Source: an uncultured Rickettsiales bacterium
Lineage (GTDB): Bacteria > Pseudomonadota > Alphaproteobacteria > Rickettsiales > UBA1997
Direction of reading: 5' to 3'
NCBI GenBank assembly: GCA_944391005.1
Contig: CALXSB010000118.1
Coordinates: forward strand, 1-46,191
DNA: 46,191 nt
A model generated the notes under the pieces. The model ran no database searches, was not told where the DNA came from, and worked only from the letters and a program-made list of their open reading frames with translations. Shown here piece by piece: positions 19,078-40,554 of the stretch. A program made the translations under genes and the position numbers. The stretch's first letter is position 1, and each line of letters begins with the position of its first letter.

Positions 19078-19127
19078 TTTCTTTAAAAGTTTTTAATTTA
19101 ATAAATATTTATTCACACAATAAAAAT

Positions 19128-19156
19128 ATTATATGACATATTTAATAAAATTACAA
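19128..19156 (-). promoter_or_regulatory. Candidate sigma70 promoter for the CDPS-like gene
   Basis: On the minus strand: TTGTAA (19156-19151), 17-nt spacer, perfect TATAAT (19133-19128), about 50 nt before the ATG at 19077. Confidence 0.35.
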
Positions 19157-19259
19157 GCTATTTATTTTTATATAATTAATTATATAAAAATACTGCTTAT
19201 AATTAAAATTCATTTATATTATAAATTATAAACAATATTTTTATTTTTTCAATACAAAA

Positions 19260-20792: not shown

Positions 20793-20972
20793 AAATTTAT
20801 AAAACTTTTATTCCTTGTTAAAAGATTAATTAGATTTTTGAATTAATCAAGAAAAAAATATTTAATACAATATAATTAACAATTTTTAATATATTTTATT
20901 TTATTTTTTTTATTTTAAGTTGCTATGGTATAGCCTATCTATTTATAAACCAATACAATATTAATTTATTTA

Positions 20973-22217
20973 CTATACTATTTTTGCCCCATTAAACATA
21001 TTTGTTATATTTTGTATTAGATCATCATTTGATGTATTTTGTTGAATATTTGTTTCTTCATCCTGTAATTGTGAATTTTGATTTTTTAAAATATCATCAA
21101 GACTAGGTAATCTGCTGCCATAACAAACGTTTATAATTATTATATCCATAATTTTTTTTGCATCAAAATTATTTCTAAGTTCATTTTCTCCTTTTAAAAG
21201 AATTTTCCAAATCCTCATTAAAGAACTAAGGTTAATTTTGTCAATAGTGTTTTTTATAATATCAACTTGATCCGTTGGCAAATGGGCTGTTTCAAAAAAG
21301 TTTGTTAAAGTTTTTGCCATTATCATATTATGATTTACGTTTAATAGATCCTGCATTAGTGCATTGATATCTAGAGAATAGGAGTATATATTTTCAAACT
21401 GCTGCAATGCCTTCTCAGAATCTCCTTCCAGCATGCTTAAGAATAAATCATATATATTTTTTTTACTGCTTAAACCTAGCATTTCTGATACAGTTTTTTC
21501 TGTTAAAACTTTTTCATAATTGTTATAACTTAGTGCTCTATCTAGTAATGATAGAGAATCTCTAACAGATCCTTCTGCAAAGCTTGACAATACAGACAAA
21601 GCTCCATCCTCAACCTCATAACCTTCTTTTTGGCATATATTCGCTATATGGGATTTAACCTCGTCAAAACTAAGTCGTCTTAAATCAAACCTTTGACATC
21701 TTGATAAAATTGTAATTGGAACTTTTCTAATTTCTGTTGTAGCAAAAATAAATTTTATATAGGATGGTGGTTCTTCCAATGTTTTTAACAGTGCATTAAA
21801 AGCACTTTTTGAAAGCATATGAACTTCATCTATTATAAATATTTTATATCTTGAATTAACCGGTCCATAGGCAGTGCTTTCTATTATTTGTCTAATATCA
21901 TCAACACCTGTATGGCTGGCAGCATCAAACTCTATAACATCTTGATCGCTAGAGTTTGCAATTGCCTTGCAATGTTCGCATTCTCCGCATGCATCAATAG
22001 TTGCACCATCGCTATGGGAACAATTTAGAGATTTAGCAATTAATCTTGCTGTTGTTGTTTTTCCAATACCTCTTATGCCTGTTAATATAAAGGCATGATG
22101 AATTTTATTGTTTTTAATTTCATTTGATAAAGTTTGAACTAGTGCTGGCTGTCCAACTAATTCCGAAAATTTCTGAGGCCTATATTTTCTTGCTAAAACT
22201 TGATATTGTTTTTCCAT
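20973..22217 (-). CDS. dnaX: DNA polymerase III subunit gamma/tau (short, 414 aa)
   Basis: YRPQKFSELVGQ, Walker A GIRGIGKTTTARL, Zn module CGECEHC, DEVHML, SRCQRF. Confidence 0.92.
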   Translation of the reverse strand: MEKQYQVLARKYRPQKFSELVGQPALVQTLSNEIKNNKIHHAFILTGIRGIGKTTTARLIAKSLNCSHSDGATIDACGECEHCKAIANSSDQDVIEFDAASHTGVDDIRQIIESTAYGPVNSRYKIFIIDEVHMLSKSAFNALLKTLEEPPSYIKFIFATTEIRKVPITILSRCQRFDLRRLSFDEVKSHIANICQKEGYEVEDGALSVLSSFAEGSVRDSLSLLDRALSYNNYEKVLTEKTVSEMLGLSSKKNIYDLFLSMLEGDSEKALQQFENIYSYSLDINALMQDLLNVNHNMIMAKTLTNFFETAHLPTDQVDIIKNTIDKINLSSLMRIWKILLKGENELRNNFDAKKIMDIIIINVCYGSRLPSLDDILKNQNSQLQDEETNIQQNTSNDDLIQNITNMFNGAKIV

Positions 22218-22451
22218 TTTATTATTAATTTTTTATACAAGAATAATATAGTAATATTTTTTTTAAAATCAAATTAAAAACTAATAATTTTTAACTACTT
22301 TAATTGTATTTTTGATTAAAGTAATAATTAAAAATAACCATTGGTATTTTTTATAACTAATTACAATAAAAAAATCATAAAATTGATTTTTTTCTTGATT
22401 TTAGTTTTATTAAGAATAATAATATTAATATATAATATATTATATAGAGTT

Positions 22452-22751
22452 ATGGCAGGTGGAAGAATTGATAATGATCCTTTATTTTTAGGACTTACAA
22501 GACCAAGTATGATATTAGGTGTTACCTATGTATTTGCTGGTATGAATGCTCTTGCTTCTCTTATGTTATTTGTTATGACAAGTAATTTCGTTTATCTATT
22601 AGTAGTGTTGCCAACATTACACGGTATAGCATATTTGATATGTTTAAAGGAACCTTTAACACTAGAGATGATTATAATGAAAACAAGTAATTTTATGAAA
22701 TGCAAGAATAAAACTTTTTATGATGGCACGAACTCTTATGATGTTTATTAA
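22452..22751 (+). CDS. virB3: Type IV secretion system protein VirB3
   Basis: Start trimmed to MAGGRIDNDPLFLGLTRPSMILGV (VirB3 LFxGLTRP motif), followed by two TM helices. About 99 aa, directly upstream of virB4. Confidence 0.85.
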   Translation: MAGGRIDNDPLFLGLTRPSMILGVTYVFAGMNALASLMLFVMTSNFVYLLVVLPTLHGIAYLICLKEPLTLEMIIMKTSNFMKCKNKTFYDGTNSYDVY

Positions 22752-22768
22752 ATGGGTTTATATATATT

Positions 22769-25162: not shown

Positions 25163-28146
25163 TATTTAAAAAAACCCTTAAAGATATTATAACTATTTTT
25201 ATTATAAGCACAACTCTTACAACGGCTTGTTTTGAAAGTGCTTTTGCATTATCTGACCGAACTAAAGAAACGCGATATTCTGTTACCACAAGAGATGATG
25301 GTGTAAAAATTTTTGAAAGTTCTATTGGTGGGTTAAATATTTTACCTTATCTTTCAGAAACTTCTGGTGGAGATTTATCTGTTGAGCTATCTAATCCATA
25401 TTGTTTGTCATATACAGCAATATATGCTATCGTTATGTATGCTGGAAATTGGGCTGTTAGATTGACTGCCACTGGAATTCTTCTTAATATGGCGGTAATA
25501 ATATATGGTATTGCAGCTTCAAAATTTAATAAATATGAAATTTGCGGAGCTGATTGGCTAAATTGGGGAAGCAATGAAGATGTAGATGCCACAGCCTTAT
25601 CCAATATTAAAAGGTATTATCCCTCTAAAGGTGCGTTTGGCGGATCTAGAAAATTTAGAGTTCAAGAATGTGTTAGCGATATTAGCAAATGCACTTCTGA
25701 TTTAGTTGATAAAAGTTTTATTAGTAAGAGCGGAAGAACAAGATTAAATATAAATGATAAAGCCTATAGAGAAAGAATATATGATGGTGAAGAGGTTGCT
25801 AATACAAATTGTAGAGATCCTCGTGAAGAAGCTAAAGGATATGATGTAAATCAAGATTTAGTTGCAAGAGGTGAGACGCCATATCAATTGTATTATATGA
25901 GAGGGTTTGAGAAAGGAAATTATGCCTGCGACAGATTTTTAGTTGGCAAGCAAGAAGAAGGTGATGAATTTGATCAAGCTTATGATTGCTGTGTTGAAGC
26001 AAGTAGAAGCGTATGCATAAGGCAAAAGACAGGCTTGCTTAGTGATGTAAAATTTTGTTCAATTGATGAAAAAATATGTGATTTTAATGGCGTTGAGATT
26101 GAAATTTTTGCTGGTGAAGATGGAACAAACGATAAATATTGTGCTAGAACCTATAGTCTTTGTCCATATAATTTTAATTTTCAACACGGAACTGAAAAAA
26201 AATTATCTTTCGATTCAAGTGCTACAACTGATGGAAGCGATGGAGTAACAGTAGAAAACGAATGCTATGATGCATCTAATGATGAAACGCTTTCTTGTCA
26301 AGGAAGAATAAAGAATTTTTACCAATACAATAGACATTGCACTATGGTTGAAGAATACGTTGAAGTTCCAGAAGACATAAATGAATCATATCCTCCATAT
26401 GTTGATAAATCATGTATAAACTTTGTTGGCAGTTCACATAATCATATTGACGGCGATTATAAAAGCTATAATGGTTATGATAAAATGTTTAAGACCTACA
26501 ATTCATTTACAGCACCTATTGCTGAATGTTTAACAGAAACATTGAAGAATTTTTTATTTAATAAGGCTGGCCATACTATATGTCAAAAGGAAGGAGAAAG
26601 ACCGAATAGTGAAGAGACGTGTCCAGGTGGTGTTTATGTAACAAAAGGTGATGATTTATTTAAAGTTCAGAGTATATCTTCTCCAACTATGACACTATTA
26701 TCTCGTATTCATACATTAATAATGTTGACTTTGGTATTAATGATAACAATATATGGATTCAATCTTTTAACTAATGTAGATAAATTTCATAGAAGAGACA
26801 TGGTTATAATGTTATTAAAAGTTGTTATTGTTGTTGCTTTTTCAGCTGATGATTGGTGGTATAAACAGATATTTCAATTTACATATGGATTCTCAAATAC
26901 ACTTTCTACAATAACTGGTAAGTTTGGTTTTGATGACACAAAGAGTGCAAAGAAAGAAAGTAGCGACACAGGAGATTCTTTGTTAGGAAGCGATGAGGAA
27001 TATATAAAATATGATGGATGTTATTTTGGAGATCCGCAAAATTTATTAACAGATGAAAATACGACTATATATTTATCAAATAATTATTCGGCATATCCAG
27101 TAGATAGAAGGTATGTCGCATTTTTTGATACGCTTGATTGTAAAATTAATAAATATTTAGGAGTTGGTATGGGTCTAGATGCACCTAATATAATGATGAT
27201 GTTAGGTATATCTCTTATATGGCCGTTTAATATTGGTATCTATTTAGCTGTTGCTACTTTATTATTAGCATTCTTTGCAATTAATTTTGCAATAAAGGCT
27301 GTTTATATATTTGTGGTTTCATCAGTAGCAATGGCCTTGATGCTATATCTAGCCCCAATAATGATACCTTGTATTTTATTCAGAAGAACACATAAAATAT
27401 TCCAAAATTGGCTAAAAAATTTAATAAGTTTTGCTCTGCAACCAATGGTTTTATTCCTATTCGTTGGAATGGCAATTACTGTTATGGATAAATATACTTT
27501 AGGTGATGGTTTATTTGTAGGAAGTGGTATGAATAAAGAATTAGTATGTGGATATGCTTGTATAAGTGATGCTGGAACAGTTATTGATTATACAAACTCT
27601 AGGGGTAGCAGTGTTCTTACGGAATTTACAGAAACTTGTACTAGTGGCGAAGAAAATCAAATACTTGATTTAAAAAGAAATAGTGTATTGTGTTTCTTAA
27701 ATAATATGACAAGCAGTCCTTGGGCATTACTACAGGCATTTGGAATTTTTATTCCAATTCTTAAGGATATATTTTTATCGGATGTTTTAAGCTTTTTAAG
27801 AGTAGCATTTTTGTTCTTTATACTGACACAGGTTCTGAATACTATACCTGGTATTGCTGCAAACTTAACTGGTGGTAAAGAATTGCCTGGAACTAAGGCT
27901 GGAGATCCATTTGAACTCTATAAAAAAGCTGTTGATATTACAAAAGCTCTTTCAAGAGGATTTAAAGGTGCCGTTTCTAAATATGGTGGCGGCTTTACAA
28001 AATGGGGATATGATAAAATTAATAAGTTAAAAGATTACGTTAGTGAAAATAATGAAGCTAAAGAAAGAGCTGAGAAAAGAGGTAATGGCCCTCAAGGAAA
28101 TGGTGGCGATGTTGGCGTTGAAAAAACTGAACAAAAAACAAATTAA
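25159..28146 (+). CDS. virB6: Expanded VirB6/TrbL-family T4SS channel protein (paralogue 1, 995 aa)
   Basis: ATGA overlap with the virB4 stop. Signal peptide and a Cys-rich N-domain. The polytopic core APIMIPCILFRRTHKIFQNWLKNLISFALQPMVLFLF matches the A. tumefaciens VirB6 region PLILVGYIFDRTRDIAAKWIGQLITYGLL. Confidence 0.75.
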   Translation: MIFKKTLKDIITIFIISTTLTTACFESAFALSDRTKETRYSVTTRDDGVKIFESSIGGLNILPYLSETSGGDLSVELSNPYCLSYTAIYAIVMYAGNWAVRLTATGILLNMAVIIYGIAASKFNKYEICGADWLNWGSNEDVDATALSNIKRYYPSKGAFGGSRKFRVQECVSDISKCTSDLVDKSFISKSGRTRLNINDKAYRERIYDGEEVANTNCRDPREEAKGYDVNQDLVARGETPYQLYYMRGFEKGNYACDRFLVGKQEEGDEFDQAYDCCVEASRSVCIRQKTGLLSDVKFCSIDEKICDFNGVEIEIFAGEDGTNDKYCARTYSLCPYNFNFQHGTEKKLSFDSSATTDGSDGVTVENECYDASNDETLSCQGRIKNFYQYNRHCTMVEEYVEVPEDINESYPPYVDKSCINFVGSSHNHIDGDYKSYNGYDKMFKTYNSFTAPIAECLTETLKNFLFNKAGHTICQKEGERPNSEETCPGGVYVTKGDDLFKVQSISSPTMTLLSRIHTLIMLTLVLMITIYGFNLLTNVDKFHRRDMVIMLLKVVIVVAFSADDWWYKQIFQFTYGFSNTLSTITGKFGFDDTKSAKKESSDTGDSLLGSDEEYIKYDGCYFGDPQNLLTDENTTIYLSNNYSAYPVDRRYVAFFDTLDCKINKYLGVGMGLDAPNIMMMLGISLIWPFNIGIYLAVATLLLAFFAINFAIKAVYIFVVSSVAMALMLYLAPIMIPCILFRRTHKIFQNWLKNLISFALQPMVLFLFVGMAITVMDKYTLGDGLFVGSGMNKELVCGYACISDAGTVIDYTNSRGSSVLTEFTETCTSGEENQILDLKRNSVLCFLNNMTSSPWALLQAFGIFIPILKDIFLSDVLSFLRVAFLFFILTQVLNTIPGIAANLTGGKELPGTKAGDPFELYKKAVDITKALSRGFKGAVSKYGGGFTKWGYDKINKLKDYVSENNEAKERAEKRGNGPQGNGGDVGVEKTEQKTN

Positions 28147-28157
28147 AGGAGAGTAAA

Positions 28158-31100
28158 ATGATTATATTGCAAAATAAAAGAATACTAAAAGAAATTAAGG
28201 ATTATTGTTCAATATTTTTATTTTTTGTCCTTATTTGTATAATGTTTTCTGGTAATATGGCGTTTGGTGCGGCCACTTGCACTGCGTTTGATACTTCAAG
28301 TAGCAATTATTATAATGATAGAATGAATAGATGTAAGTCGCAAACATTAGTTCCATCAATTTCAGAAAACACTTCAACTGAGACTTTGAATGGATATAAA
28401 GATTTTGATAATAATATCCCTATAACTTGTGATATAAGTAATATTGAATTTGAATTTAATCCAGATAGTTCCACAAGTGATTATCAATACAACAACAAAC
28501 GTAAAGCATGTTTAGCTATAGCTTTAACATTTCAAAGCGTTTCAGCAGCATCATTTACAACAGCAGGCTATATATGTTCGGAACCCAGCACAATAAGCAA
28601 AGCTAATAAAGTAATATCTACTATTTCTAAAGTAATAGATACTCTATCAGCTATTGCTGATGTTGTTACAACCACCCTTTCTGCTACTTTAACATCATAC
28701 GTAATTGATCCAAGAATAAGTTTTCATACTGAGTTAGCCATTTCTGCAGGAACTTTAGCTGGTACAGCTATTGCAAGGCTTATTTCTACAGCCGGCATGG
28801 ATGGAGCTGCATGGACTTGTTTAGGAACGGCTGTAGGTCTTGTTGCTGTCTTGGAGGGCACATATTATGCTTCTTTAGGAGGACAGTTTGAAACTGCAAA
28901 AAAACAACTACGCAAAGTTAATGTTTGTGGTAATGATTGGTATTCCTATGCTTATACAGAGTATGATATGCAGAGGCCAATAAGAGAATGGTATCCTCAA
29001 CATGGATCGTTTTCAAATTCCTATAGTTATAAACTTAATAAAATAATTTCTAAAGAATATAATTGCGAAGGCTTTTTAGATAACTTAAATGGCGGCGGAG
29101 ATAGTAGTGAAATTAAAGTATCATCGGAAGCTTCAGCATGTAATGAAAGCGTTTGTAAAGCAGAAATTAAACAATGTTTAAGCGAAACAACAACCGCAAT
29201 TGATACAAATGGAAGAGCATTTACTAAAACAAAATCACTATCTGAATGTATTGAAGAAAGCAGTAAGAGCTGTAATTCATATTGTAGAAAATATATTGCT
29301 TCATGCAAGCCAATGATCTCTGCTTTAGATGGAGATGGTATTTGTGATGGTAATGAAGAATTTTGTAAAGATATAAAATCTTATAGTAAAAATTTAAAAA
29401 ATAGATTTTATAGAGAAACTTTATATAAAGGAAAAGAATTTAAGATAACAAAGGAATATAGAGGAAATAAAGATTATTGTTTTGATCCAAGATTGCCAGA
29501 ATCAAAAGGATTTAATGGATTAGAACAAAGGTATTATTTTAGAGGAAAAGAAGCTGCACAATATGCCTGCAATAGGTTTGTATATAGTGGGGGGGGATGC
29601 GTGCTAGGAGATGGAACTGTAATTACAAAAGATGATCTTACTGTGGCTGGTAATATTACACAGGAAATTGCTGATAGTAATGATGCAAAATGTGCTCAAG
29701 CGTTTGAACAGGCTAAAACATGCTGTCAAAATAGAGCAACTCTTGGTATTTGCGTATATGATGAAAGTGCTAATAATAGAAATAATAATACAATGTGCTT
29801 AAGAAGTGCTGATTCTGAAGAAACTGATGAAACATGCACATTAGATACAGAAGGAGGAACGAATCCAAAGTTTATAGCATTTCAGAGTCCAGAAAACAGC
29901 AGTGATACCTGTATAAAAACCATAGGTTATTGTCCATATGATTTCAATGTTGCTGGAGGAACTGTATTAGAAGAACAGTATTGCAACGGAGATTATACAA
30001 GTAGAACATCATGTGGTGATGATTATTATAAAATATGGAAAAAGGGTTCATTTAGAGAACCAACAATGTATTATGGACAGACTAAAAACTTCTGTTTTTA
30101 TAGAGCTCATTGCACAGAAATGGGAACAAGCGATTATGAATTTGCTGATATAACCTCAAGTAGATATTTACCAAAAGTTTGTTCAGACTTTATTGGCGAT
30201 TCACAAAATTTACCTGTGCCTTTTAGCATTATTGATTTAAATGGCACTAAGGACGAGTCAAAAAAATTAGTTGCCGGCGTAGACTTTAGTCTAGGAGAAT
30301 ATAGGGGATTTACTGCACCAATAGCACAATGTATAAGGGAAACTGTATATAATATGTTTAATAATGTAGCCGGACAAAGCTCCTGTAAAGATGGTTCTGA
30401 ACCTAATGATGATGGGTATTGTGGTGAAGATACAGCTGATAGCATCAGAAAAACAAAAATTTGTTCTAAGAATCAGGGAAAATTTTGTACTGATGATGAA
30501 AGTGTATGCGGAGTAAATGACGGTCAATGCGAGTATTTATATTATAATTATATAATGGGTGAAAAATTACCTGACGGTGATAATATATTTTATACTATTC
30601 AATCTAGACTGCAATTAATTATTAAATTGGCTGCCGTTATCGCTATTATAGTAATTGGAATTAATTTTCTTTTAAGAGGCGAAATGGCAATATTTGATGA
30701 TATCAGAAAGCCAAAGTTAATTATTGTTGGAATGTTAAAATTCGCAATAGTATTTTATTTTGCGGTTGGAGAAGCATGGCAGACATATTTTTATAAATGG
30801 ATTGATGCTTCAACTCAATATTTATATTATAAAGCTTTTGATTTATCTTTATTAGATTATAAAGACTATAAAAATCAGGCCGAGGTTAGTGTTTGTGATA
30901 TAACGACAAATACAGAGACCTGTGAACAAATATCATCATTAAAAGATAATGGAGAAATTTGTAAAGACTTCTCCTATACCGGCGGCGAACAGTCTTTTAC
31001 AGTTCCAGATAATGTTGAAAGTATTAAATTAGAGGTTTGGGGTGCACAAGGTGGAAATGGAAAATATTCTACAGGTGGTTTAGGTGGTTATTCTACTGGT

Positions 31101-33710
31101 AAATTAAAAGTGCAGCAAAATGACGTGCTAAAGATTATAGTTGGCGGAGCCGGAGGTTCTTCTGGCGTAGCTGGATACAATGGCGGCGGTAAAGGAAATG
31201 AAGCCGGCGGCGGAGGTGGAGGCAGAACTGAGATTTCTACTGACGATACATTATTAATTGTAGCCGGCGGTGGCGGTGGTGGTGCTGAAGCTGAAGGTAA
31301 AAATGGCGGTGCCGGCGGAGGCGGATCTGAAAGTGGTAGAGCCGGAACTGACAATGGAAATTGTGCAGGTGCTGGAGGTAAAGATGGTATTGGTGGCGGA
31401 ACAGGCACAACTTGTAATACAAGTGAAGTTAAATACGGAAAAGGTGAGGCTAGCAAGGGTGGAGATATATATGTAGAATCTGGATCCGAAAATGACATAA
31501 AACAAATAGTTTATTCCGGTTCAAATGCACAAACTATAGATGTGCCAGCCGGTGCAACTAAAGCAATTATTGAAATATATGGTGCTAATGGTGGAAATGG
31601 AATTAATAATAAATCAAAAGGTGGAAAAGGTGGATATGCAAAAGGTATTTTGAATATAACTGATGATATAAAACAAATTACAGTTGGTATTGGATCTAGT
31701 GGTGGAGATATTACAAAACATAATGGTGGTATAGCTCCTGATATATGTGCTTGTAATGGTGGCGCAGCAAATGCTAATTATGATGATGGTGCTGGTGGAG
31801 GAGCGTGTTCATGTGTAGTTGTAAATGATAAAGTTATCATGATTGCTGGCGGAGGAGGAGGAGGTGATTATTCTATTTTTAGCGATACAGGTGGTTCTGG
31901 AGGAGGTAAAATTGGAGGAGCGAATGGTACTGAAGAAATATTTGGAGGCACACAAAATGGAAGAGGTAATTGTGAACACATTGGTTCATTACAAGAATGT
32001 CCTAATAATAATGGGTATGGATGCAGTCCTATTACTTTTGGAGGTGGCGGAGGTGGCGGATACTATGGCGGATGTGCGGGAACAGCTACTGATTGGGCTG
32101 GAGGCGGTGGAAGTGGTTATATTGATGAAGATATTTTAACTGATGCCTCAATGGCAAATGGTAAAAATGAAAGTAGTGATGGCAATGGCTATGCTAGAAT
32201 CACATTTACTGATGATGATGGAAATATAATTTCTGATGATAATTCAAAGGGTATTGGCACTGGCGGCGGTGGTGCAGGATATGGCGGCGGTGCCAGCGGA
32301 TCATCGGGAAATTCTGGTGGTGGCGGTGGCGGATATGTTAATAAGACAATTTTAACAGAAACTAATGGCGTAACAGGATCAAATGAGGCCACTGGCAATG
32401 GAAAAGCTAGAATATGCTATACAAATTATGAAAAAGTAACTACGGATTATTGTAGCACTTCAGAAGAAACTCTTAAAGAGCAGGAAATAACTGATCTATC
32501 AATATTTGATAATGGCGAATTACCAACGGGACCATATATTATTTCTGAAGATCCTAAGGTAAATAATAATATAACAACAACTGTTGTAAAAACATATAAT
32601 AATTGCACTACAAAACCTAGTGTTGATAGTTCTGGGGCTGCAATATATGATTTTAGTGATAAATATGACGGATGTTATTTTGGTGATGCTAAATATCCTG
32701 AAGGAAAAGAATATTTGTCTATATTTGATAGTCTTGATTGTAAACTAGCTAACTATTTTAATTATGGACCAAGCACTGATTTACCTGGAATATTGCATAT
32801 GATAATATTATCACTAGTTTGGAGTCCATTGGCTTTAATAACTGTGCTTTTAGGATTTTTGATATTTATAATAATGTTAATTATAGTAATAGATATACTT
32901 TATATATTCCTAATGAGTATTATAGCTATTAATTTGTTAATATATGTAAGTCCTATTGTATTCCCTTCTCTATTATTCCATAGATTTGAAAGTATATTTA
33001 ATAAATGGCTAAATTATCTTATGAGCTTCTGTTTACAGTTTATGTTTGTTATAATATATGCTGGATTCTTAATAGGAAATTTAGATAATTTTGCTATGGG
33101 TAGTGCAAAATATGTTGGTCATGATCCAACAACAGGAAGACTCCCTTCTATAGAATGCAGCGGTGCGACAGACAGTATTCTTTGTTTGTTTGCTCCAAAT
33201 ACAAGCAAAGGAGATACTTATCTAATGGGCGAAAAGGTTGGAAAAATTCTTGGACTTGGTCCTATTATTTCAGTAGCCAATGCATTAGTTCAGGACTTTA
33301 CTGGAACAGTATTCACGTTGTTAAAATTCTGTTTAATAATGTATGTTCTAATGGAATTTTTAAAGAAGATGCCAGATTTTGTTGCTAAGTTAACTAATGG
33401 TACTGCTTTAAATGGTAAAAATATAAGTCTTACTGAGACTATGAAGGGAGTAAAAGATGGAGTTGAAACTGTTAAAAGAGGTGCGATGGGTATTTTAAAG
33501 GGTGCTGGTAATAAAGTTTCTAGTGCTGGTTCCTTCTTATATAAAGGTGGCAAGGCGATTGCTGATAAAGTAGAATCAAAGAAAAGAGATGAAGCAAGAT
33601 CTCGTGGCCCTCAAGATAAAGGTGGTGGTGAAGCGAAATCCGATGATAAAAATAGTAAAAGCAATTCTGGTGATGTCGGAGTAAGCTCTGTTGAGGAAAA
33701 AAATGATTAA
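28158..33710 (+). CDS. virB6: Giant VirB6/TrbL-family T4SS protein (paralogue 2, 1850 aa) with inserted glycine-rich modules
   Basis: AGGAG Shine-Dalgarno sequence. Collinear with paralogue 1: YYFRGKEAAQYACNRF, GYCPYDFNV, FTAPIAQCIRETVYNMFNNVAGQS, YDGCYFGD, FDSLDCK, and SPIVFPSLLFHRFESIFNKWLNYLMSF. It also carries an insert of about 485 aa. Confidence 0.72.
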   Translation: MIILQNKRILKEIKDYCSIFLFFVLICIMFSGNMAFGAATCTAFDTSSSNYYNDRMNRCKSQTLVPSISENTSTETLNGYKDFDNNIPITCDISNIEFEFNPDSSTSDYQYNNKRKACLAIALTFQSVSAASFTTAGYICSEPSTISKANKVISTISKVIDTLSAIADVVTTTLSATLTSYVIDPRISFHTELAISAGTLAGTAIARLISTAGMDGAAWTCLGTAVGLVAVLEGTYYASLGGQFETAKKQLRKVNVCGNDWYSYAYTEYDMQRPIREWYPQHGSFSNSYSYKLNKIISKEYNCEGFLDNLNGGGDSSEIKVSSEASACNESVCKAEIKQCLSETTTAIDTNGRAFTKTKSLSECIEESSKSCNSYCRKYIASCKPMISALDGDGICDGNEEFCKDIKSYSKNLKNRFYRETLYKGKEFKITKEYRGNKDYCFDPRLPESKGFNGLEQRYYFRGKEAAQYACNRFVYSGGGCVLGDGTVITKDDLTVAGNITQEIADSNDAKCAQAFEQAKTCCQNRATLGICVYDESANNRNNNTMCLRSADSEETDETCTLDTEGGTNPKFIAFQSPENSSDTCIKTIGYCPYDFNVAGGTVLEEQYCNGDYTSRTSCGDDYYKIWKKGSFREPTMYYGQTKNFCFYRAHCTEMGTSDYEFADITSSRYLPKVCSDFIGDSQNLPVPFSIIDLNGTKDESKKLVAGVDFSLGEYRGFTAPIAQCIRETVYNMFNNVAGQSSCKDGSEPNDDGYCGEDTADSIRKTKICSKNQGKFCTDDESVCGVNDGQCEYLYYNYIMGEKLPDGDNIFYTIQSRLQLIIKLAAVIAIIVIGINFLLRGEMAIFDDIRKPKLIIVGMLKFAIVFYFAVGEAWQTYFYKWIDASTQYLYYKAFDLSLLDYKDYKNQAEVSVCDITTNTETCEQISSLKDNGEICKDFSYTGGEQSFTVPDNVESIKLEVWGAQGGNGKYSTGGLGGYSTGKLKVQQNDVLKIIVGGAGGSSGVAGYNGGGKGNEAGGGGGGRTEISTDDTLLIVAGGGGGGAEAEGKNGGAGGGGSESGRAGTDNGNCAGAGGKDGIGGGTGTTCNTSEVKYGKGEASKGGDIYVESGSENDIKQIVYSGSNAQTIDVPAGATKAIIEIYGANGGNGINNKSKGGKGGYAKGILNITDDIKQITVGIGSSGGDITKHNGGIAPDICACNGGAANANYDDGAGGGACSCVVVNDKVIMIAGGGGGGDYSIFSDTGGSGGGKIGGANGTEEIFGGTQNGRGNCEHIGSLQECPNNNGYGCSPITFGGGGGGGYYGGCAGTATDWAGGGGSGYIDEDILTDASMANGKNESSDGNGYARITFTDDDGNIISDDNSKGIGTGGGGAGYGGGASGSSGNSGGGGGGYVNKTILTETNGVTGSNEATGNGKARICYTNYEKVTTDYCSTSEETLKEQEITDLSIFDNGELPTGPYIISEDPKVNNNITTTVVKTYNNCTTKPSVDSSGAAIYDFSDKYDGCYFGDAKYPEGKEYLSIFDSLDCKLANYFNYGPSTDLPGILHMIILSLVWSPLALITVLLGFLIFIIMLIIVIDILYIFLMSIIAINLLIYVSPIVFPSLLFHRFESIFNKWLNYLMSFCLQFMFVIIYAGFLIGNLDNFAMGSAKYVGHDPTTGRLPSIECSGATDSILCLFAPNTSKGDTYLMGEKVGKILGLGPIISVANALVQDFTGTVFTLLKFCLIMYVLMEFLKKMPDFVAKLTNGTALNGKNISLTETMKGVKDGVETVKRGAMGILKGAGNKVSSAGSFLYKGGKAIADKVESKKRDEARSRGPQDKGGGEAKSDDKNSKSNSGDVGVSSVEEKND
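29589..29596 (+). repeat. G8 homopolymer inside virB6 paralogue 2
   Basis: Direct reading: agtGGGGGGGGatgc, encoding S-G-G-G-C. Confidence 0.95.
30969..32424 (+). other. Glycine-rich (ALK/LTK Gly_rich-like) module region within virB6 paralogue 2
   Basis: There are two module starts: FSYTGGEQSFTVPDNVESIKLEVWGAQGGNG and VYSGSNAQTIDVPAGATKAIIEIYGANGGNG. Poly-Gly runs GGGGGG follow. There are two module ends: GGGGSGYIDEDIL...GNGYARITF and GGGGGGYVNKTIL...GNGKARICY. The region is a local GC-rich island. Confidence 0.6.
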
Positions 33711-33742
33711 TAATATTGAAGTGTAATATTAGTAAGTTTTAA

Positions 33743-34552
33743 ATGATAAATAATAATATAGCACTTCAAATTATAAAAAAATATAATTTATCTACTAAGA
33801 AAAAGTTCGGACAAAATTTCTTAGTAGATGAATCTCTGTTAGATAAGATTGTTTTAAGTGCTGGAGATATAAAAGGTAAAAATGTTCTTGAGGTTGGCCC
33901 TGGTCCTGGTGGTTTAACCTATTCAATTTTAAAACAATTGCCTAAAAAATTAATATCGGTTGAAATAGATAATGATTTAATAGAAATATTAAAAAGTGAG
34001 TTTGCTAAGTATGGTAATTTTGAGGTTCTTAATGATGATGCTTTAAAAATTGATGAGTCTATATATTTTGATGGAAAGATAAATGTTATTGCAAATCTGC
34101 CATATAATGTTGGCACTAGTTTGTTGATTAAATGGATGAAAAATATAAAATATTTTAGTAGTTTTACTTTGCTTTTGCAAAAAGAAGTAGTTGATAGAAT
34201 TGTTGCCTCTCCAAAAACTAAAGATTACGGTAGGCTGTCGATTGTTGTTCAATCATTGTGCTATGTAAAAAAGGTATTTGATATTAAACCAACGAGTTTT
34301 ATGCCGCCTCCTAAAGTTATGTCTTCGGTTGTGCATATTATACCAAAAGATAATACGGATAATATAAATGTTGAAAAACTTTCAAAAATAACCTATTATT
34401 TATTTAATAATAGAAGAAAAAAAATAAAAGGTGCTATGGAAAATTTAGTGTCTGCTAATATTGTTTCTTCTAATGCGATAAATTTAGTTGATGTTAATAA
34501 AAGAGCTGAAGAGCTTTCTGTTGAAGAATTTATTGCTTTATCAAATATGTAA
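33743..34552 (+). CDS. rsmA: 16S rRNA (adenine1518/1519-N6)-dimethyltransferase RsmA/KsgA
   Basis: FGQNFLVD, SAM motif VLEVGPGPGGLT, and NLPYNV. Confidence 0.95.
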   Translation: MINNNIALQIIKKYNLSTKKKFGQNFLVDESLLDKIVLSAGDIKGKNVLEVGPGPGGLTYSILKQLPKKLISVEIDNDLIEILKSEFAKYGNFEVLNDDALKIDESIYFDGKINVIANLPYNVGTSLLIKWMKNIKYFSSFTLLLQKEVVDRIVASPKTKDYGRLSIVVQSLCYVKKVFDIKPTSFMPPPKVMSSVVHIIPKDNTDNINVEKLSKITYYLFNNRRKKIKGAMENLVSANIVSSNAINLVDVNKRAEELSVEEFIALSNM

Positions 34553-34572
34553 AATAAACAATATATAAAATT

Positions 34573-34875
34573 ATGACAATACATCTTGCTGTAGTCCATA
34601 AAATTTTTCTTAATGCAATGATAAATGGTAAAAAAACAATAGAAACAAGGTTTACAAAAGTAAGATGTGCACCATTTGATAGGGTAAATGTTGGGGATAA
34701 AGTTTTGTTAAAGGAAAGTGGAAAACCGATTGCTTTTGAATATACTGTTGATAAAGTAGAATATTATATAAATGAGAATGATGGTCTTTTTGATAAATTA
34801 AAAGAATATTCAAATCAGATTCAAAGTAATTTGATAGAAAATTTTTGGGAAGACAGAAAAGATAAAAATATATAA
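34573..34875 (+). CDS. ASCH-domain protein (5' part; the reading frame continues to 34967 after a 1-nt shift)
   Basis: PUA-like ASCH N-terminus IHLAVVHKIFLNAMINGKKTIETRF...VGDKVLLKESG. The ORF stops inside an A5/TA run, and a stop-free frame carries on as TFIYIKDLK...RKGWVVLCE. Confidence 0.6.
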   Translation: MTIHLAVVHKIFLNAMINGKKTIETRFTKVRCAPFDRVNVGDKVLLKESGKPIAFEYTVDKVEYYINENDGLFDKLKEYSNQIQSNLIENFWEDRKDKNI

Positions 34876-34991
34876 CATTTATATATATAAAAGATTTAAA
34901 ACACGTAATAAAAGATTATAAAATATTTAAAAGGGATAGAAAGGGCTGGGTTGTTCTGTGTGAATAATTTTATTTTCTATGTAATTTATTA

Positions 34992-35029: not shown

Positions 35030-36955
35030 CTATAGGTCAAAACCGTTGCTTTTTTCTTCAACTTTCTTTTTGAGCTTGGAAATAAATTCGTCAACTCCCA
35101 TAGAAAATTGTTTGTCGCTTCCCAATACTCTTAATGTAATTGAATTGTTTTGTTTCTCTTTGTCTCCAACTATTATTAGGAAAGGAACTTTTGCTAATGA
35201 ATGTTCTCTAATTTTATAATTTAAAGTCTCGTTTGATAAATCTTTTTCAATTCTAAATCCTTGTTCTTTAAATTTAGAATATAATTCATTGCAATAATCT
35301 TCTACGTTTTCGTTTATATTTAAAATTACACCCTGCAATGGATTTAGCCATAATGGGAATTTGCCTTCAGTGTCTTCAATTAAAATACCCATAAATCTTT
35401 CTATTGAACCTAATAAAGCTCTATGAATCATAATTGGCTCATGTTTTTCACCATCCTGTCCGATATAGCTCATCTTAAATCTCTTAGGTAAGTTCATATC
35501 AAGTTGAATTGTTCCAACCTGCCAATCTCTGCCCATGGCATCCTTTAAAACAAATTCAAGTTTAGGCCCGTAGAATGCGCCTTCACCTGGAAATATTGTA
35601 AAGTCAAGATTTAGCTTTTTCATTGCATCGGCTAAAGCTTTTTCTGCTATATCCCAAATTTCTTCACTGCCAATTCTCTTTTCTGGTCTAGTTGAAAGTT
35701 TTATAATGACATTTTTAAATCCAAAATCTTTGTAAATGTTTAAACAAAATTTTGTAGTTTCAATTATTTGTTGTTCAACTTGATCTGGCGTGCAGAAAAT
35801 ATGGGCATCGTCCTGAGTAAATTCTCTAACTCTTAAAAATCCGTTTAGTGCACCGCTTGCTTCGTATCTGTTGACTCTGCCAAATTCCGCCATTTTTATA
35901 GGCAAATCTTTATAGGATTTTATGCCTTGATTATAAATTAAGATACCACCGGGACAGTTCATTGGTTTTACACAGAATTGAGTATCATCTTCCATCTTTC
36001 CGGAATAGTTATGCTCGCCATATTTTTCCCAATGACCCGAGATTTCCCATAAGCATCTGTTCATAATTCTAGGAGTTGAAACTTCAATATATCCGGCGGC
36101 CTCTTGTTTTTGCCTCATGTGGTTTACAAGAGAATTAAATATAAACAAGCCTTTAGGGTGATAGAAAGGTGCACCTGGTGCATATTCTGGATCAAAATGA
36201 GCTAAATCCATAGCTTTTACGATCTTTTTGTGGTCTCTTTTTTCTGCTTCCTGTAAAAATTCAAAATATTTTTCTAAATCTTCTTTGCTAGCCCAAGCTG
36301 TTCCATAAATTCTTTGAAGCATTTTGTTCTTGCTATCGCCTTTCCAATAGGCTCCAGCTACTTTAGTTAGTTTAAAGAATTTTAAATATCTGGCTGATGG
36401 AACGTGAGGACCTCTGCATAAATCTATAAAATCTCCTAGTTTATAGATTGTAAGCTTTTCATCAATGGGCAAATCATTAATTAATTCAACCTTATAAACT
36501 TCACCTTTGTCCTTAAATAATTTTATGGCTTCTTCTCTAGAAATTTCTTCACATGAAAATTTTATATCCTCTTTAATTATTTCGTTCATCTTTTTTTCAA
36601 TGGCAGGAAAATCGTTTTCGGAAAAAGGAGTTTTTCTATCAAAGTCATAATAAAACCCATTTTCAATAGCTGGACCTATAGCAATTAAAGTGTCAGGAAA
36701 TAATTGTTTTACTGCATAAGCCATTAAATGTGAAGTTGAATGTCTAATAATTTCTAGGCCTTCTGGCGAAAATTTATCAATAAATTCAATATTGCAATCT
36801 TTATTAATTTCTTTTGACAAATCAGCTGCTTTACCATCAATTTTCATTGCAATAGAACCTTTTGGAGCATCATCGCCTAAAGCTTTTAATACTTGAAATC
36901 CATTAACAGAATTATCAAATTCTTTAATAGAACTATTTATATTAATCTTGATCAT
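35030..36955 (-). CDS. thrS: Threonine--tRNA ligase
   Basis: 641 aa. TGS N-domain, editing-domain motif HSTSHLMA, class II core (FRVREFTQDDAHIF, GAFYGPKLEF), and a C-terminal anticodon-binding domain. Confidence 0.95.
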   Translation of the reverse strand: MIKININSSIKEFDNSVNGFQVLKALGDDAPKGSIAMKIDGKAADLSKEINKDCNIEFIDKFSPEGLEIIRHSTSHLMAYAVKQLFPDTLIAIGPAIENGFYYDFDRKTPFSENDFPAIEKKMNEIIKEDIKFSCEEISREEAIKLFKDKGEVYKVELINDLPIDEKLTIYKLGDFIDLCRGPHVPSARYLKFFKLTKVAGAYWKGDSKNKMLQRIYGTAWASKEDLEKYFEFLQEAEKRDHKKIVKAMDLAHFDPEYAPGAPFYHPKGLFIFNSLVNHMRQKQEAAGYIEVSTPRIMNRCLWEISGHWEKYGEHNYSGKMEDDTQFCVKPMNCPGGILIYNQGIKSYKDLPIKMAEFGRVNRYEASGALNGFLRVREFTQDDAHIFCTPDQVEQQIIETTKFCLNIYKDFGFKNVIIKLSTRPEKRIGSEEIWDIAEKALADAMKKLNLDFTIFPGEGAFYGPKLEFVLKDAMGRDWQVGTIQLDMNLPKRFKMSYIGQDGEKHEPIMIHRALLGSIERFMGILIEDTEGKFPLWLNPLQGVILNINENVEDYCNELYSKFKEQGFRIEKDLSNETLNYKIREHSLAKVPFLIIVGDKEKQNNSITLRVLGSDKQFSMGVDEFISKLKKKVEEKSNGFDL

Positions 36956-37577: not shown

Positions 37578-40326
<2,749 letters not shown>

Positions 40327-40393
40327 ATAAAAGTATATAAAGTAACACTATATATAGTGTTAAGTCTATAATATAAGTGAACAAGGGTATATA

Positions 40394-40409
40394 TTGTACT
40401 AATATTAAT
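40394..40409 (+). repeat. 3' arm of the long-range 23S processing helix
   Basis: Perfect 16-nt complement of 37444-37459. A second, inner complement links tctaaaaaagc (37576-37586) with gcttttttaga (40317-40327). Confidence 0.7.
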
Positions 40410-40438
40410 AGTTATTTATTGATAACCGTCTTTAAATA

Positions 40439-40554
40439 GCTTGGTAATTATAATGATGTGGAACCACTCGATACATTCCGAACTCGCCAGTGAAACGCAA
40501 ACCATGCCGATTGTACTATGGTCTCTACCATGGGAGATTAGGTCATTGCCAAGC
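40439..40554 (+). rRNA. rrf: 5S ribosomal RNA
   Basis: Helix I gcttggtaa/ttgccaagc. Conserved ccgaactc...agtgaaacg and a gtactatgg...ccatgggaga core. About 116 nt. Confidence 0.9.

What the first reader, a model, noticed from the sequence alone, without database searches (positions are those of the whole stretch)
30969..32424. ALK/LTK-type polyglycine (Gly_rich) modules inserted into the periplasmic loop of a 1850-aa VirB6
Paralogue 2 of VirB6 is collinear with paralogue 1 except for an insert of about 485 aa. The insert lies between the second TM helix (PKLIIVGMLKFAIVFYFAV...) and the shared YDGCYFGD / FDSLDCK block. Paralogue 1 has only about 40 residues at that position (FGFDDTKSAKKESSDTGDSLLGSDEEYIK).

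The insert reads FSYTGGEQSFTVPDNVESIKLEVWGAQGGNG...IIVGGAGG...GGGGGG...LLIVAGGGGGG. A second copy follows: VYSGSNAQTIDVPAGATKAIIEIYGANGGNG...IMIAGGGGGG...GGGGSGYIDEDIL...GNGYARITF. An extra duplicated C-terminal element comes last: GGGGGGYVNKTIL...GNGKARICY. The pattern YTG-x2-Q-x-F-x-VP-x-x-V-x-x-I-x-[VI]-x-GAxGG plus hexaglycine runs and a closing GNG-x-[AV]-x-I is, to my recollection, the signature of the bacterial and viral glycine-rich-protein family. That family is homologous to the glycine-rich ligand-binding domain of the ALK/LTK receptors, which forms a polyglycine-II helix lattice.

Topology can be inferred from a signal peptide, a Cys-rich periplasmic N-domain and two TM helices. 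This places the insert in the equivalent of the large periplasmic loop of A. tumefaciens VirB6, which contacts the translocating substrate. I am not aware of a binding-type polyglycine module fused into the T4SS inner channel subunit. It could gate or decorate the channel, or be displayed to the host. The insert is a local GC-rich island using many GGC codons in an otherwise AT-rich genome.
Basis: partly seen in the sequence, partly recalled or inferred. Interest (0 to 1): 0.8.

Follow-up and report, generated by a model that had tools for sequence, protein, structure and literature searches.

The report
ALK-type glycine-rich domains inside VirB6
A membrane subunit (VirB6) of a type IV secretion machine from an uncultured Rickettsiales bacterium carries, in its outward-facing central loop, two copies of the glycine-rich binding domain known from the human ALK receptor and from phage tail fibres, one copy probably nested inside the other; this gives an identity to one of the unexplained extra domains of "extended" VirB6 proteins.

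Summary
The 1850-aa ORF (28158-33710) is the second of two tandem virB6 genes after virB3-virB4. It is collinear with the 995-aa first paralogue, except that 620 aa replace 42 aa between TM2 and the YDGCYFGD block. Residues 938-1422 match Pfam PF12810 (ALK_LTK_GRD) at E 6e-35. An AlphaFold model of the complete copy finds only ALK/LTK structures as top PDB matches (TM about 0.5) and phage virion or tail-fibre proteins (TM up to 0.71).

It is not a chimera. An independent assembly is 99.96% identical across the gene, with no differences in the insert. The same insertion occurs in at least eight 50%-identity clusters of uncultured Rickettsiales VirB6. It was probably gained once and lost once.

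Two corrections apply. The "extra C-terminal element" is most likely the C-terminal quarter of the first GRD, split by a complete second GRD nested within it. The "GC island" is only glycine codon composition (GC3 0.177 vs 0.174).

Hydropathy, charge and cysteine distribution place the loop in the periplasm. The function is inferred: a binding or structural head on the VirB6 platform, possibly filling the role of VirB5, which Rickettsiales systems reportedly lack. I rate it a new variant of the known extended-VirB6 class.

The parts
22341..22751 (+). virB3 (the longest ORF is 136 aa; the independent contig calls a 99-aa product equivalent to 22452-22751)
   Evidence: Pfam PF05101 VirB3, E 5.8e-22; gene call on L033
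22769..25162 (+). virB4 ATPase, 797 aa
   Evidence: Translation; Pfam VirB4_TrbE_N and CagE_TrbE_VirB on the identical gene of L033
25159..28146 (+). virB6 paralogue 1 (short, 995 aa), with only about 42 aa between TM2 and the YDGCYFGD block
   Evidence: Pfam TrbL, E 9e-17; collinearity with paralogue 2
28158..33710 (+). virB6 paralogue 2 (long, 1850 aa): an extended VirB6 with GRDs in its central loop
   Evidence: Pfam TrbL plus ALK_LTK_GRD; 11 full-length homologues
28158..28268 (+). N-terminal signal-peptide-like segment (aa 1-37; K/R n-region, hydrophobic 19-37, AFG/AA)
   Evidence: Hydropathy scan; sequence. Cleavage is not tested.
28269..30614 (+). Cys-rich N-terminal domain (aa 38-819, 40 Cys), predicted periplasmic. 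Its C-terminal ~470 aa are shared with paralogue 1. No Pfam family matches.
30615..30773 (+). TM1 (aa 820-838), short cytoplasmic loop LRGEMAIFDDIRKPK, TM2 (aa 854-872)
   Evidence: Hydropathy and charge
30798..30968 (+). N-side linker (aa 881-937; Cys 913, 922, 935). Residues 909-933 are modelled as one long beta strand.
   Evidence: AF2 loop model, strand E48-72; per-10-residue pLDDT across this strand is uneven at about 66, 90, 57; Cys positions
30969..31469 (+). Outer GRD, N-terminal three quarters (aa 938-1104; model positions 4-197)
   Evidence: pLDDT 85-96 in the loop model
31488..32219 (+). Inner GRD, complete (aa 1111-1354; model positions 2-262), nested in the outer GRD
   Evidence: AF2 pLDDT 79.5, pTM 0.82. 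Foldseek hits to ALK/LTK, E 5e-9, TM 0.5. Phage virion proteins, TM up to 0.71.
32244..32432 (+). Outer GRD, C-terminal quarter (aa 1363-1425; model positions 202-262; ends GNGKARICY)
   Evidence: Cys1420 covaries with Cys935
32433..32657 (+). C-side linker (aa 1426-1500; Cys 1432, 1483), modelled as long beta strands at aa 1422-1444 and 1472-1487
   Evidence: strands E561-583 and E611-626. pLDDT is about 54 at the start of the first strand and rises to 83-91 from aa ~1432 through the second strand. Cys positions.
32658..33437 (+). Conserved VirB6 core (aa 1501-1760): YDGCYFGD and FDSLDCK motifs, hydrophobic helices, TrbL match
   Evidence: weak match to TrwI 7o3v_F
33438..33710 (+). K/R-rich C-terminal tail (aa 1761-1850), predicted cytoplasmic, plus the stop codon

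Best explanation
The gene encodes the long member of a conserved pair of VirB6 subunits of a Rickettsiales-type (rvh-like) type IV secretion system.

Anatomy. The loop that follows the second membrane helix corresponds in position to the large central periplasmic loop reported for A. tumefaciens VirB6 (my recollection, not checked here). It faces the periplasm and has been enlarged to about 67 kDa. It consists of a cysteine-containing beta-ribbon that carries an ALK/LTK-type glycine-rich domain at its tip. A second complete GRD is nested in a surface loop of the first.

How it most likely works. VirB6 forms the pentameric platform at the base of the periplasmic stalk, so five such loops (ten GRDs) would sit in the central periplasmic chamber of the machine. 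I think they form part of the stalk or central cylinder. There they would act as a rigid binding head, doing at least part of the job that the VirB5 pentamer does on top of VirB6 in canonical systems. Candidate roles are docking the pilin or the outer-membrane complex, or contacting the target.

What is shown: the domain identity; the insertion site; conservation across species; the single origin.

What is inferred from sequence: the periplasmic topology; the nested architecture.

What is speculative: the place in the assembled machine; the VirB5-like role; the ligand.
For: Domain identity:
- PF12810 at E 6e-35.
- Every top PDB fold match is an ALK/LTK GRD.
- There are 181 viral matches, with TM up to 0.71.

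VirB6 identity and operon:
- TrbL hits, with virB3 and virB4 directly upstream.

Site and topology:
-. There are 60 Cys in the predicted periplasmic segments and 0 in 142 cytoplasmic residues (p about 0.007).

Conservation:
- The GRD sits at the same site in 10 homologues in the protein search (9 by PF12810 and one only by a sub-threshold PF21722 Gly_rich_2 hit) and in 7 genome loci.
- The 8 best of 150 representatives from a 1.84-billion-protein library carry it.
- The GRD is as conserved (45-55%) as the N-domain (50-58%) and nearly as conserved as the core (57-63%).

History:
- A neighbour-joining tree gives a single gain with one loss.

Nesting:
- HMM coordinates.
- The same pattern occurs in L003 and P0145.
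- The outer copy is 73% identical between window and L003, the inner copy 51%, and outer against inner 39%.
- GC3 is 0.248 in the outer copy against 0.115 in the inner (p 2e-4).
- The first-strand and last-strand cysteines co-occur (12 units have both, 9 neither, 1 only one). In nested proteins they lie in pieces 1 and 3.

Binding-type context:
- GRD relatives occur in phage tail tips and fibres (9d93, 7ypx) and in prepilin-type proteins.
- The same VirB6 loop carries a PF21722 Gly_rich_2 domain, and a weak ConA-like match, in other lineages.

Machine context:
- A VirB6 pentamer carries a VirB5 pentamer in the R388 stalk (PMC9259494).
- rvh systems are reported to lack VirB5 and to have multiple VirB6 copies of unknown purpose (PMC11077975; bioRxiv 10.1101/2025.08.29.673095).
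Against: - There is no expression, localisation or interaction data; every sequence comes from a metagenome.
- Topology rests on a hydropathy scan, charge and cysteine distribution, not on a dedicated predictor or an experiment.
- In the R388 structure only two N-proximal helices of VirB6 cross the membrane, so mapping onto older topology models is uncertain. The sequence match of the core to TrwI is weak (E 0.65).
- The whole-loop AF2 model is poor (pLDDT 64). It paired piece 1 with the C-terminus of the inner copy because of how the alignment fell, so the nesting has no structural confirmation.
- TM-scores to ALK/LTK are only about 0.5. The polyglycine-II lattice itself could not be inspected because no coordinates were available.
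- Absence of VirB5 could not be checked for this genome, since only 46 kb are in hand.
- One close relative (L008) does without the GRD, so the domain is not indispensable.
- Ten GRDs plus five 86-kDa N-domains may not fit inside a canonical periplasmic chamber.
Confidence: 0.5

Rival explanations
1. Surface or host-contact adhesin. The GRD-bearing loop is released by proteolysis, or is pushed through the outer-membrane complex with the pilus or channel. It would then act outside the bacterium as the receptor-binding tip that recognises the eukaryotic host (probably a gut protist), as GRDs do on phage fibres and pilins.
For: - GRD relatives sit in phage tail tips, fibres and virion proteins and in prepilin-type proteins.
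- One related MAG encodes a pilin-like GRD protein 3 kb from its VirB6-GRD gene.
- The inner GRD evolves faster than the outer one (51% vs 73% identity), as an exposed head might.
- VirB5, the usual tip adhesin, is reported missing in rvh systems (PMC11077975).
- Processing of extended VirB6 paralogues has been reported in Ehrlichia (Bao et al. 2009, cited in PMC12857230; the detail is from my own recollection).
Against: - The loop is anchored on both sides by membrane helices, so display needs two cleavages or a large rearrangement. I did not look for, and cannot name, a cleavage motif.
- In the R388 model VirB6 stays at the pilus base (PMC9259494).
- There are no localisation data.
Confidence: 0.2
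2. Periplasmic docking site for cargo or cell wall. The GRDs bind a periplasmic ligand rather than forming the stalk. Candidates are peptidoglycan, a periplasmic effector intermediate (two-step secretion as in the pertussis toxin system), or the pilin.
For: - The location is predicted periplasmic.
- The GRD is a ligand-binding fold in ALK/LTK (PDB entries).
- From my recollection, the corresponding central loop of A. tumefaciens VirB6 was reported to be needed for substrate contact. I could not verify this in the library.
Against: - There is no evidence for any ligand.
- ALK/LTK ligands (ALKAL cytokines) have no bacterial counterpart.
- This reading overlaps heavily with the best explanation and cannot be separated from it by sequence.
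Confidence: 0.12
3. Tolerated passenger. The TM2-to-core loop is simply a permissive site that accumulates insertions. The GRD would then have no specific role in secretion.
For: - The same site holds unrelated inserts of 280-870 aa in other lineages, against a median of 29 aa.
- L008 lacks the GRD.
- GRDs are promiscuous mobile modules.
Against: - The GRD is retained across at least 8 clusters at 50% identity, with intact family motifs and Pfam-significant scores.
- It is about as conserved as the N-domain.
- Its codon usage is fully ameliorated.
- Reduced endosymbiont-type genomes at 27% GC rarely keep 1.5 kb of useless glycine-rich coding sequence.
Confidence: 0.08
4. Assembly chimera or frameshift artefact joining a glycine-rich gene to virB6.
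For: None found. The only hint was the local GC rise.
Against: - An independent assembly from another sample is gap-free and 99.958% identical over 16.8 kb, spanning both junctions.
- The same architecture occurs in many MAGs from different studies.
- GC3 in the insert equals that of the rest of the gene.
Confidence: 0.01

Closest known systems
ALK/LTK glycine-rich (TG) domain, Pfam PF12810; PDB 7nx1, 7nx3, 7lrz, 7n00, 7ls0
   Same: - Significant HMM match.
- The same motif order: YTG..Q.F.VP, LEVWGAxGG, IVAGGGGG, GGGGGGYYGG, GGGGSGY, closing GNGxAxI.
- Every top PDB fold match is ALK/LTK, with probability 1.0 and E down to 5e-9.
   Different: - Identity is only 20-24% and TM about 0.5.
- The protein is bacterial and the domain sits inside a polytopic membrane protein rather than in a receptor ectodomain.
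- There is no EGF-like or kinase module.
- The ALKAL ligands do not exist in bacteria.
- One GRD is nested in another.
Phage and giant-virus GRD proteins (virion structural, short tail fibre and tail-collar proteins; Bxb1 tail tip 9d93_Qb; cyanophage Pam3 fibre 7ypx; PHROG 7388/1589/5811)
   Same: They share the GRD fold, with closer structural agreement than to ALK (TM 0.6-0.71, rmsd 4-7 A; PHROG E 2e-32). They suggest a receptor-binding or virion-surface role.
   Different: Those are soluble fibre or virion proteins. Here the domain is a loop of an inner-membrane secretion subunit. Most of those families have no tested function.
Extended VirB6 proteins (Rickettsia RvhB6a-e, Ehrlichia/Anaplasma VirB6 paralogues, F-plasmid TraG, Legionella DotA as VirB6 analogue)
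   Same: - A VirB6/TrbL core plus large hydrophilic domains.
- Tandem multicopy virB6 after virB3-virB4.
[quoted passage not shown]
   Different: - Here the central domain has a recognisable fold (GRD), a defined insertion point and a datable origin.
- There are only two paralogues, not four or five.
- Both carry an additional Cys-rich N-domain.
- I found no report of a GRD in any VirB6.
VirB5 (TrwJ/TraC) stalk and pilus-tip subunit
   Same: The proposed position is on top of the VirB6 pentamer in the periplasmic stalk, with a proposed binding or adhesin role. VirB5 is reported absent from rvh systems.
   Different: There is no sequence or fold similarity: VirB5 is helical and the GRD is beta plus polyglycine. 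The GRD is covalently part of VirB6. The analogy is functional and speculative.

Membership tests
ALK_LTK_GRD (Pfam PF12810) | Profile HMM match above the curated gathering score | tested here: met
   121.7 bits against a cut-off of 24.5, E 6e-35, two stretches, best covering profile positions 12-242 of 243. Nine homologues also pass.
ALK_LTK_GRD (Pfam PF12810) | Fold of the solved ALK/LTK TG/GRD domains (beta sandwich plus glycine-rich subdomain) | tested here: met
   The AF2 model of aa 1106-1356 has pLDDT 79.5 and pTM 0.82. Its 19 best PDB matches are all ALK/LTK, with E 5e-9 to 8e-6 and TMq 0.47-0.52. The TM is borderline, but the hits are exclusive to this family.
ALK_LTK_GRD (Pfam PF12810) | Hexagonal lattice of polyglycine-II helices formed by the Gly runs | tested here: inconclusive
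   The Gly runs (IMIAGGGGGG, FGGGGGGGYYGG, AGGGGSGY) are present and are invariant in the alignment.
ALK_LTK_GRD (Pfam PF12810) | Binding of a protein ligand (ALKAL-type cytokine) by the domain | not testable with these tools
   No ligand is known for any bacterial or viral GRD, and there is no ALKAL homologue to look for.
VirB6/TrbL (Pfam PF04610) | Profile HMM match above the gathering score | tested here: met
   P2 scores 32.1 bits against 25.9 (aa 1559-1646). P1 scores 61.9 bits.
VirB6/TrbL (Pfam PF04610) | Several hydrophobic helices; polytopic inner-membrane protein | tested here: met
   The hydropathy scan finds segments at 820-838, 854-872, 1542-1608, 1621-1639 and 1714-1735.
VirB6/TrbL (Pfam PF04610) | Encoded with other T4SS genes | tested here: met
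   virB3 (PF05101, E 6e-22) and virB4 lie directly upstream on the same strand.
VirB6/TrbL (Pfam PF04610) | Similarity to the solved VirB6 (TrwI, R388) and pentameric stalk base | tested here: inconclusive
   The core profile hits TrwI 7o3v_F only weakly (E 0.65; profile 75-148 against TrwI 154-226). The oligomeric state is not testable here.
Rickettsiales rvh-type T4SS with extended, multicopy VirB6 | Tandem virB6 paralogues with large hydrophilic extensions downstream of virB3-virB4 | tested here: met
   There are two tandem paralogues of 995 and 1850 aa. The short-plus-long pair is conserved in the related loci where both genes could be examined.
Rickettsiales rvh-type T4SS with extended, multicopy VirB6 | No VirB5 analogue; duplicated VirB4, VirB8 and VirB9 elsewhere in the genome | not testable with these tools
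   Only 46 kb of the genome are available. I noticed no virB5-like gene in the window, but only a subset of its ORFs was scanned against Pfam. The hallmarks are taken from PMC11077975.
Rickettsiales rvh-type T4SS with extended, multicopy VirB6 | Organism belongs to Rickettsiales | tested here: inconclusive
   Most related loci come from MAGs labelled Rickettsiales (one Deianiraeaceae); a few carry other or less specific labels. The window has about 27% GC and a 23S-5S pair without a 16S gene. No phylogenomic placement of the window itself was done.

The most novel reading that the evidence does not exclude
In this clade of VirB5-less Rickettsiales, the VirB6-borne double GRD is the functional replacement of VirB5. 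Five beta-ribbon stalks would lift ten GRDs to form the distal stalk or cap of the secretion channel. The faster-evolving inner GRD would be the host-recognition head that contacts the eukaryotic (protist) membrane, after cleavage or extrusion. This would be a domain-in-domain-in-protein solution to building a T4SS tip. It would also be the first assigned role for the central domain of an extended VirB6.
Probability: 0.2. Interest if true: 0.8.

Novelty: new variant of a known kind. Interest (0 to 1): 0.58.

Why it matters
Extended VirB6 proteins are a long-standing puzzle. A 2025 review states that how their extra domains contribute to T4SS structure or function is not known (PMC12857230). 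The Wolbachia in-situ study calls the VirB6 expansions a mystery and asks how pili form without VirB5 (bioRxiv 10.1101/2025.08.29.673095).

Here one such extra domain gets four things:
- a recognisable fold with solved relatives;
- a precise insertion site;
- a dated origin;
- natural controls: the GRD-less short paralogue, relatives with other inserts, and a relative that lost the domain.

That makes hypotheses about the periplasmic stalk of rvh-type systems testable by modelling, cryo-ET and domain swaps.

The finding also extends the known range of the ALK/LTK GRD fold to a secretion-system membrane subunit. It gives a probable example of one GRD nested inside another.

The limits are that the organisms are uncultured and the function is inferred.

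Tried and rejected
1. Assembly chimera. Rejected by the independent contig and by the many homologues.

2. Recent horizontal transfer suggested by the GC rise. Rejected, because GC3 in the insert equals that of the rest of the gene.

3. Less likely than nesting, given the HMM coordinates, the Cys covariation, the different GC3 and the different divergence. P0003 does show a true tandem duplication, so both modes occur.

4. Whole-loop AF2 model as a test of nesting. It was uninformative. MAFFT aligned the homologues' C-terminal parts to the inner copy, and the model paired piece 1 with it.

5. A third protein search with the VirB6 core returned one hit only, because of the word-index limit, and was wasted. 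The exhaustive HMMER search replaced it.

6. A protein search with the insert was swamped by free GRD proteins and did not list the VirB6 relatives.

7. NCBIfam gave no match.

8. An exact look-up of the window protein found nothing. The near-identical P0001 worked.

9. BLAST self-comparison of the insert with default filtering showed nothing. A direct pairwise comparison without composition correction showed 31% identity, E 4e-23.

10. A literature search for the A. tumefaciens VirB6 topology paper found no usable source in the library. Any statement about that protein's central loop rests on my recollection only.
Full report
**1. What is in the window**

The window has about 27% GC. On the + strand it carries four secretion genes:
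- virB3 (22341-22751; PF05101, E 6e-22)
- virB4 (22769-25162)
- a 995-aa virB6 (25159-28146; PF04610, E 9e-17)
- an 1850-aa virB6 (28158-33710; PF04610, E 1e-7, plus PF12810 ALK_LTK_GRD, E 4e-30)

These are followed by rsmA/ksgA, with thrS on the opposite strand, and then a 23S-5S rRNA pair with no 16S gene. Most related loci found in public genomes come from MAGs labelled Rickettsiales; a few carry other or less specific labels.

**2. Check of the observation**

BLASTP of the two paralogues gives two collinear blocks: P2 412-881 with P1 197-574, and P2 1502-1850 with P1 617-995. Between them P2 has 620 residues where P1 has 42.

An independent assembly from another sample (ENA, 22,340 bp) is collinear with window 18158-34974. 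It is 99.958% identical with no gaps, and it has no differences within the insert. The feature is therefore real and is not a chimera.

The local GC rise (0.425 vs 0.320) is a consequence of 29% glycine. GC3 is 0.177 in the insert and 0.174 in the rest of the gene. GGT and GGA outnumber GGC.

**3. Anatomy of the insert**

I built a 264-position GRD HMM from single-copy VirB6 GRDs plus the complete window copy. It splits the insert into three pieces:
- aa 931-1110 (model positions 4-197)
- aa 1106-1354 (positions 2-262)
- aa 1352-1425 (positions 202-262)

Pieces 1 and 3 together make exactly one domain, and piece 2 is a complete domain sitting between them. Five observations favour a nested (domain-in-domain) architecture over 'two copies plus a spare end':

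- (a) The same three-part pattern is present in two relatives, L003 and P0145.
- (b) The outer unit is 73% identical between window and L003, the inner unit only 51%, and outer against inner only 39%. The outer unit is closest to the single GRDs of other VirB6 proteins (47-50%).
- (c) GC3 differs: 0.248 outer against 0.115 inner, Fisher p 2e-4.
- (d) A cysteine just before the first beta strand (C935) and one in the last strand (C1420, 'ARICY') co-occur across the family. Both are present in 12 units, both absent in 9, and only one is present in 1. In all three nested proteins the first lies in piece 1 and the second in piece 3, while the inner copy has neither. This fits a disulfide clamp closing the outer domain.
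- (e) The site where the inner copy sits is also where P0009, P0011 and P0012 carry a Cys-rich insertion of about 70 aa. In the model of the inner copy the equivalent stretch is the least confident part.

Structural confirmation failed. In the whole-loop AF2 run the alignment placed the homologues' C-terminal parts on the inner copy, and the overall model is poor (pLDDT 64).

That model does predict long beta strands flanking the GRDs, at aa 909-933, 1422-1444 and 1472-1487. Confidence along them is uneven. Per-10-residue pLDDT is roughly 66, 90, 57 across the N-side strand and about 54 at the start of the first C-side strand. It rises to 83-91 from aa ~1432 onward. The two flanks contain Cys 913, 922, 1432 and 1483. 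I read them as a disulfide-stapled ribbon that lifts the GRDs off the membrane.

**4. Fold**

The inner copy alone (aa 1106-1356, 32-sequence alignment) gives pLDDT 79.5 and pTM 0.82.

Against the PDB, the 19 best matches are all ALK or LTK TG/GRD structures (E 5e-9 to 8e-6, TMq 0.47-0.52, 20-24% identity). Next come the mycobacteriophage Bxb1 tail tip, an invertebrate ALK GRD and the cyanophage Pam3 fibre.

Against predicted viral structures there are 181 matches at E <= 1e-3, with TMq up to 0.71. Several of the named ones are virion structural, tail-fibre or tail-collar proteins. Three PHROG families of unknown function also match.

The polyglycine-II lattice could not be inspected because coordinates are not exposed.

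**5. Topology**

A hydropathy scan gives this order:
- a signal-like N-terminus
- a 782-aa segment with 40 Cys
- TM1 (820-838)
- a 15-aa loop with 4 K/R
- TM2 (854-872)
- the 669-aa loop with 18 Cys
- a 67-aa hydrophobic block
- a short basic loop
- one helix
- a 74-aa loop with two conserved Cys
- one helix
- a K/R-rich tail

All 60 loop cysteines fall in segments predicted to be periplasmic. None fall in the 142 residues predicted to be cytoplasmic (p about 0.007).

In the R388 cryo-EM structure only the two N-proximal helices of VirB6 cross the membrane, and the rest forms the periplasmic stalk base (PMC9259494). On either model the segment after TM2 is periplasmic.

**6. Distribution and history**

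- Eleven full-length homologues (30-49% identity) were found. Nine carry PF12810 upstream of TrbL. One (P0002) has only a sub-threshold PF21722 Gly_rich_2 match on Pfam but is matched by my GRD HMM. One (P0010) lacks a GRD. The only named one is annotated merely 'glycine-rich protein'.
- In one-genome-per-species contigs, the short-plus-long virB6 pair is conserved in the loci where both genes could be examined. The GRD is present in the long paralogue of seven related loci (L002-L007, L010) besides the window. It is absent from L008 and from a sister clade (L017, L019, L021, L024, L027) whose loop is 150-175 aa. Short paralogues have about 30 aa at this site.
- An exhaustive HMMER search of 1.84 billion representatives with the core profile gave 2374 hits. 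Of the best 150, only the eight top-scoring carry the GRD. The median loop length is 29 aa.
- A neighbour-joining tree of N-domain plus core makes the GRD bearers one clade, with L008 nested inside it. That implies one gain and one loss. The tree has no bootstrap and is indicative only.
- The GRD is about as conserved between orthologues (45-55%) as the N-domain (50-58%), and a little less than the core (57-63%).
- The same loop holds other large inserts elsewhere: 870 aa of coiled-coil-like sequence in L012; a PF21722 Gly_rich_2 domain in P0287; a weak ConA-like match in P0180; and 700-870 aa of unassigned sequence in three others.

The loop is thus a recurrent site for adding modules to the long VirB6.

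**7. How it probably works**

VirB6 forms a pentamer at the base of the periplasmic stalk. In canonical systems it carries a VirB5 pentamer, and the pilus is proposed to grow between the two (PMC9259494).

Rickettsiales rvh systems are described as lacking VirB5 and having several VirB6 copies of unknown purpose (PMC11077975; bioRxiv 10.1101/2025.08.29.673095). Extended VirB6 proteins with central hydrophilic domains are a recognised class whose function is unknown (PMC12857230).

Combining these reports with the anatomy above, I think the ribbon-plus-GRD loop (67 kDa per subunit) most likely forms part of the central periplasmic stalk or cylinder. There it would provide a rigid binding surface. 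It may take over VirB5-like tasks. The steps that concern the assembled machine and the ligand are speculative.

The rival readings are:
- display to the host after cleavage or extrusion
- a periplasmic cargo or cell-wall docking site
- a tolerated passenger
- an assembly artefact, which is effectively excluded

**8. Comparison and novelty**

The module is a member of PF12810 by HMM and by fold. The host protein is a VirB6/TrbL by HMM, hydrophobic helices and gene context.

I found no paper linking VirB6 to a glycine-rich or ALK-type domain. Because extended VirB6 proteins with central domains are already known, I rate this a new variant of a known kind.

What is new:
- the identity of the domain
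- its single origin in an uncultured, apparently gut-associated Rickettsiales clade
- the probable GRD-in-GRD nesting

I give it moderate to fairly high interest (0.58). It makes part of an open question testable, but the function is not established and the organisms are uncultured.

Noticed in passing
L010 20413-22671 (+): A separate 753-aa ORF with a pilin-like hydrophobic N-terminus and one GRD lies about 3 kb downstream of that MAG's VirB6-GRD gene. It could be a second GRD display protein or a relative of the donor.
   Followed up: partly
L012 9518-15115; proteins P0287, P0180, P0231, P0208, P0232, P0279: The same TM2-to-core loop of VirB6 carries other large inserts in other lineages:
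- about 870 aa of coiled-coil-like sequence in L012
- a PF21722 Gly_rich_2 domain in P0287 (E 4e-9)
- a weak ConA-like match in P0180
- 280-870 aa without any Pfam match in the rest
The median loop is 29 aa.
   Followed up: partly
window 37579-40554: The 23S and 5S rRNA genes have no 16S gene upstream (thrS lies at 35030-36955 on the minus strand). An unlinked rRNA arrangement is, to my recollection, typical of Rickettsiales.
   Followed up: no
window 5335-8127 (-): A 930-aa ORF with no Pfam match at E <= 0.001.
   Followed up: no
window 28269-30614 and 25159-26880: Both VirB6 paralogues share a large Cys-rich N-terminal domain that is predicted periplasmic (40 Cys in P2, many invariant across the family). 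It has no Pfam family. The long paralogue has an extra ~215 aa at its N-terminus.
   Followed up: partly
proteins P0023-P0142 (free GRD proteins, mostly unnamed MAG proteins; the few named ones are from Bacilli MAGs): The closest non-VirB6 GRDs are tandem-GRD proteins of about 700 aa. Several have prepilin N-methyl N-termini (PF07963). Many have a Cys-rich 'MYCYNC...STKTISTTC' insertion before the last strand.
   Followed up: no
proteins P0009, P0011, P0012 (GRD region); alignment A1 columns ~1975-2100: These VirB6 GRDs carry a Cys-rich insertion of about 70 aa at the same place in the GRD where the window protein has its nested second GRD. That surface loop therefore seems generally permissive.
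   Followed up: partly
protein P0003 (2114 aa): This homologue has two GRDs in a true head-to-tail tandem, with the linker sequence repeated. It is an independent duplication, different from the nested arrangement in the window.
   Followed up: partly
window 41062-43174 (+): An N6 DNA methylase gene (PF02384, E 2.5e-21) is followed by an overlapping 184-aa ORF. It may be part of a restriction-modification system.
   Followed up: no
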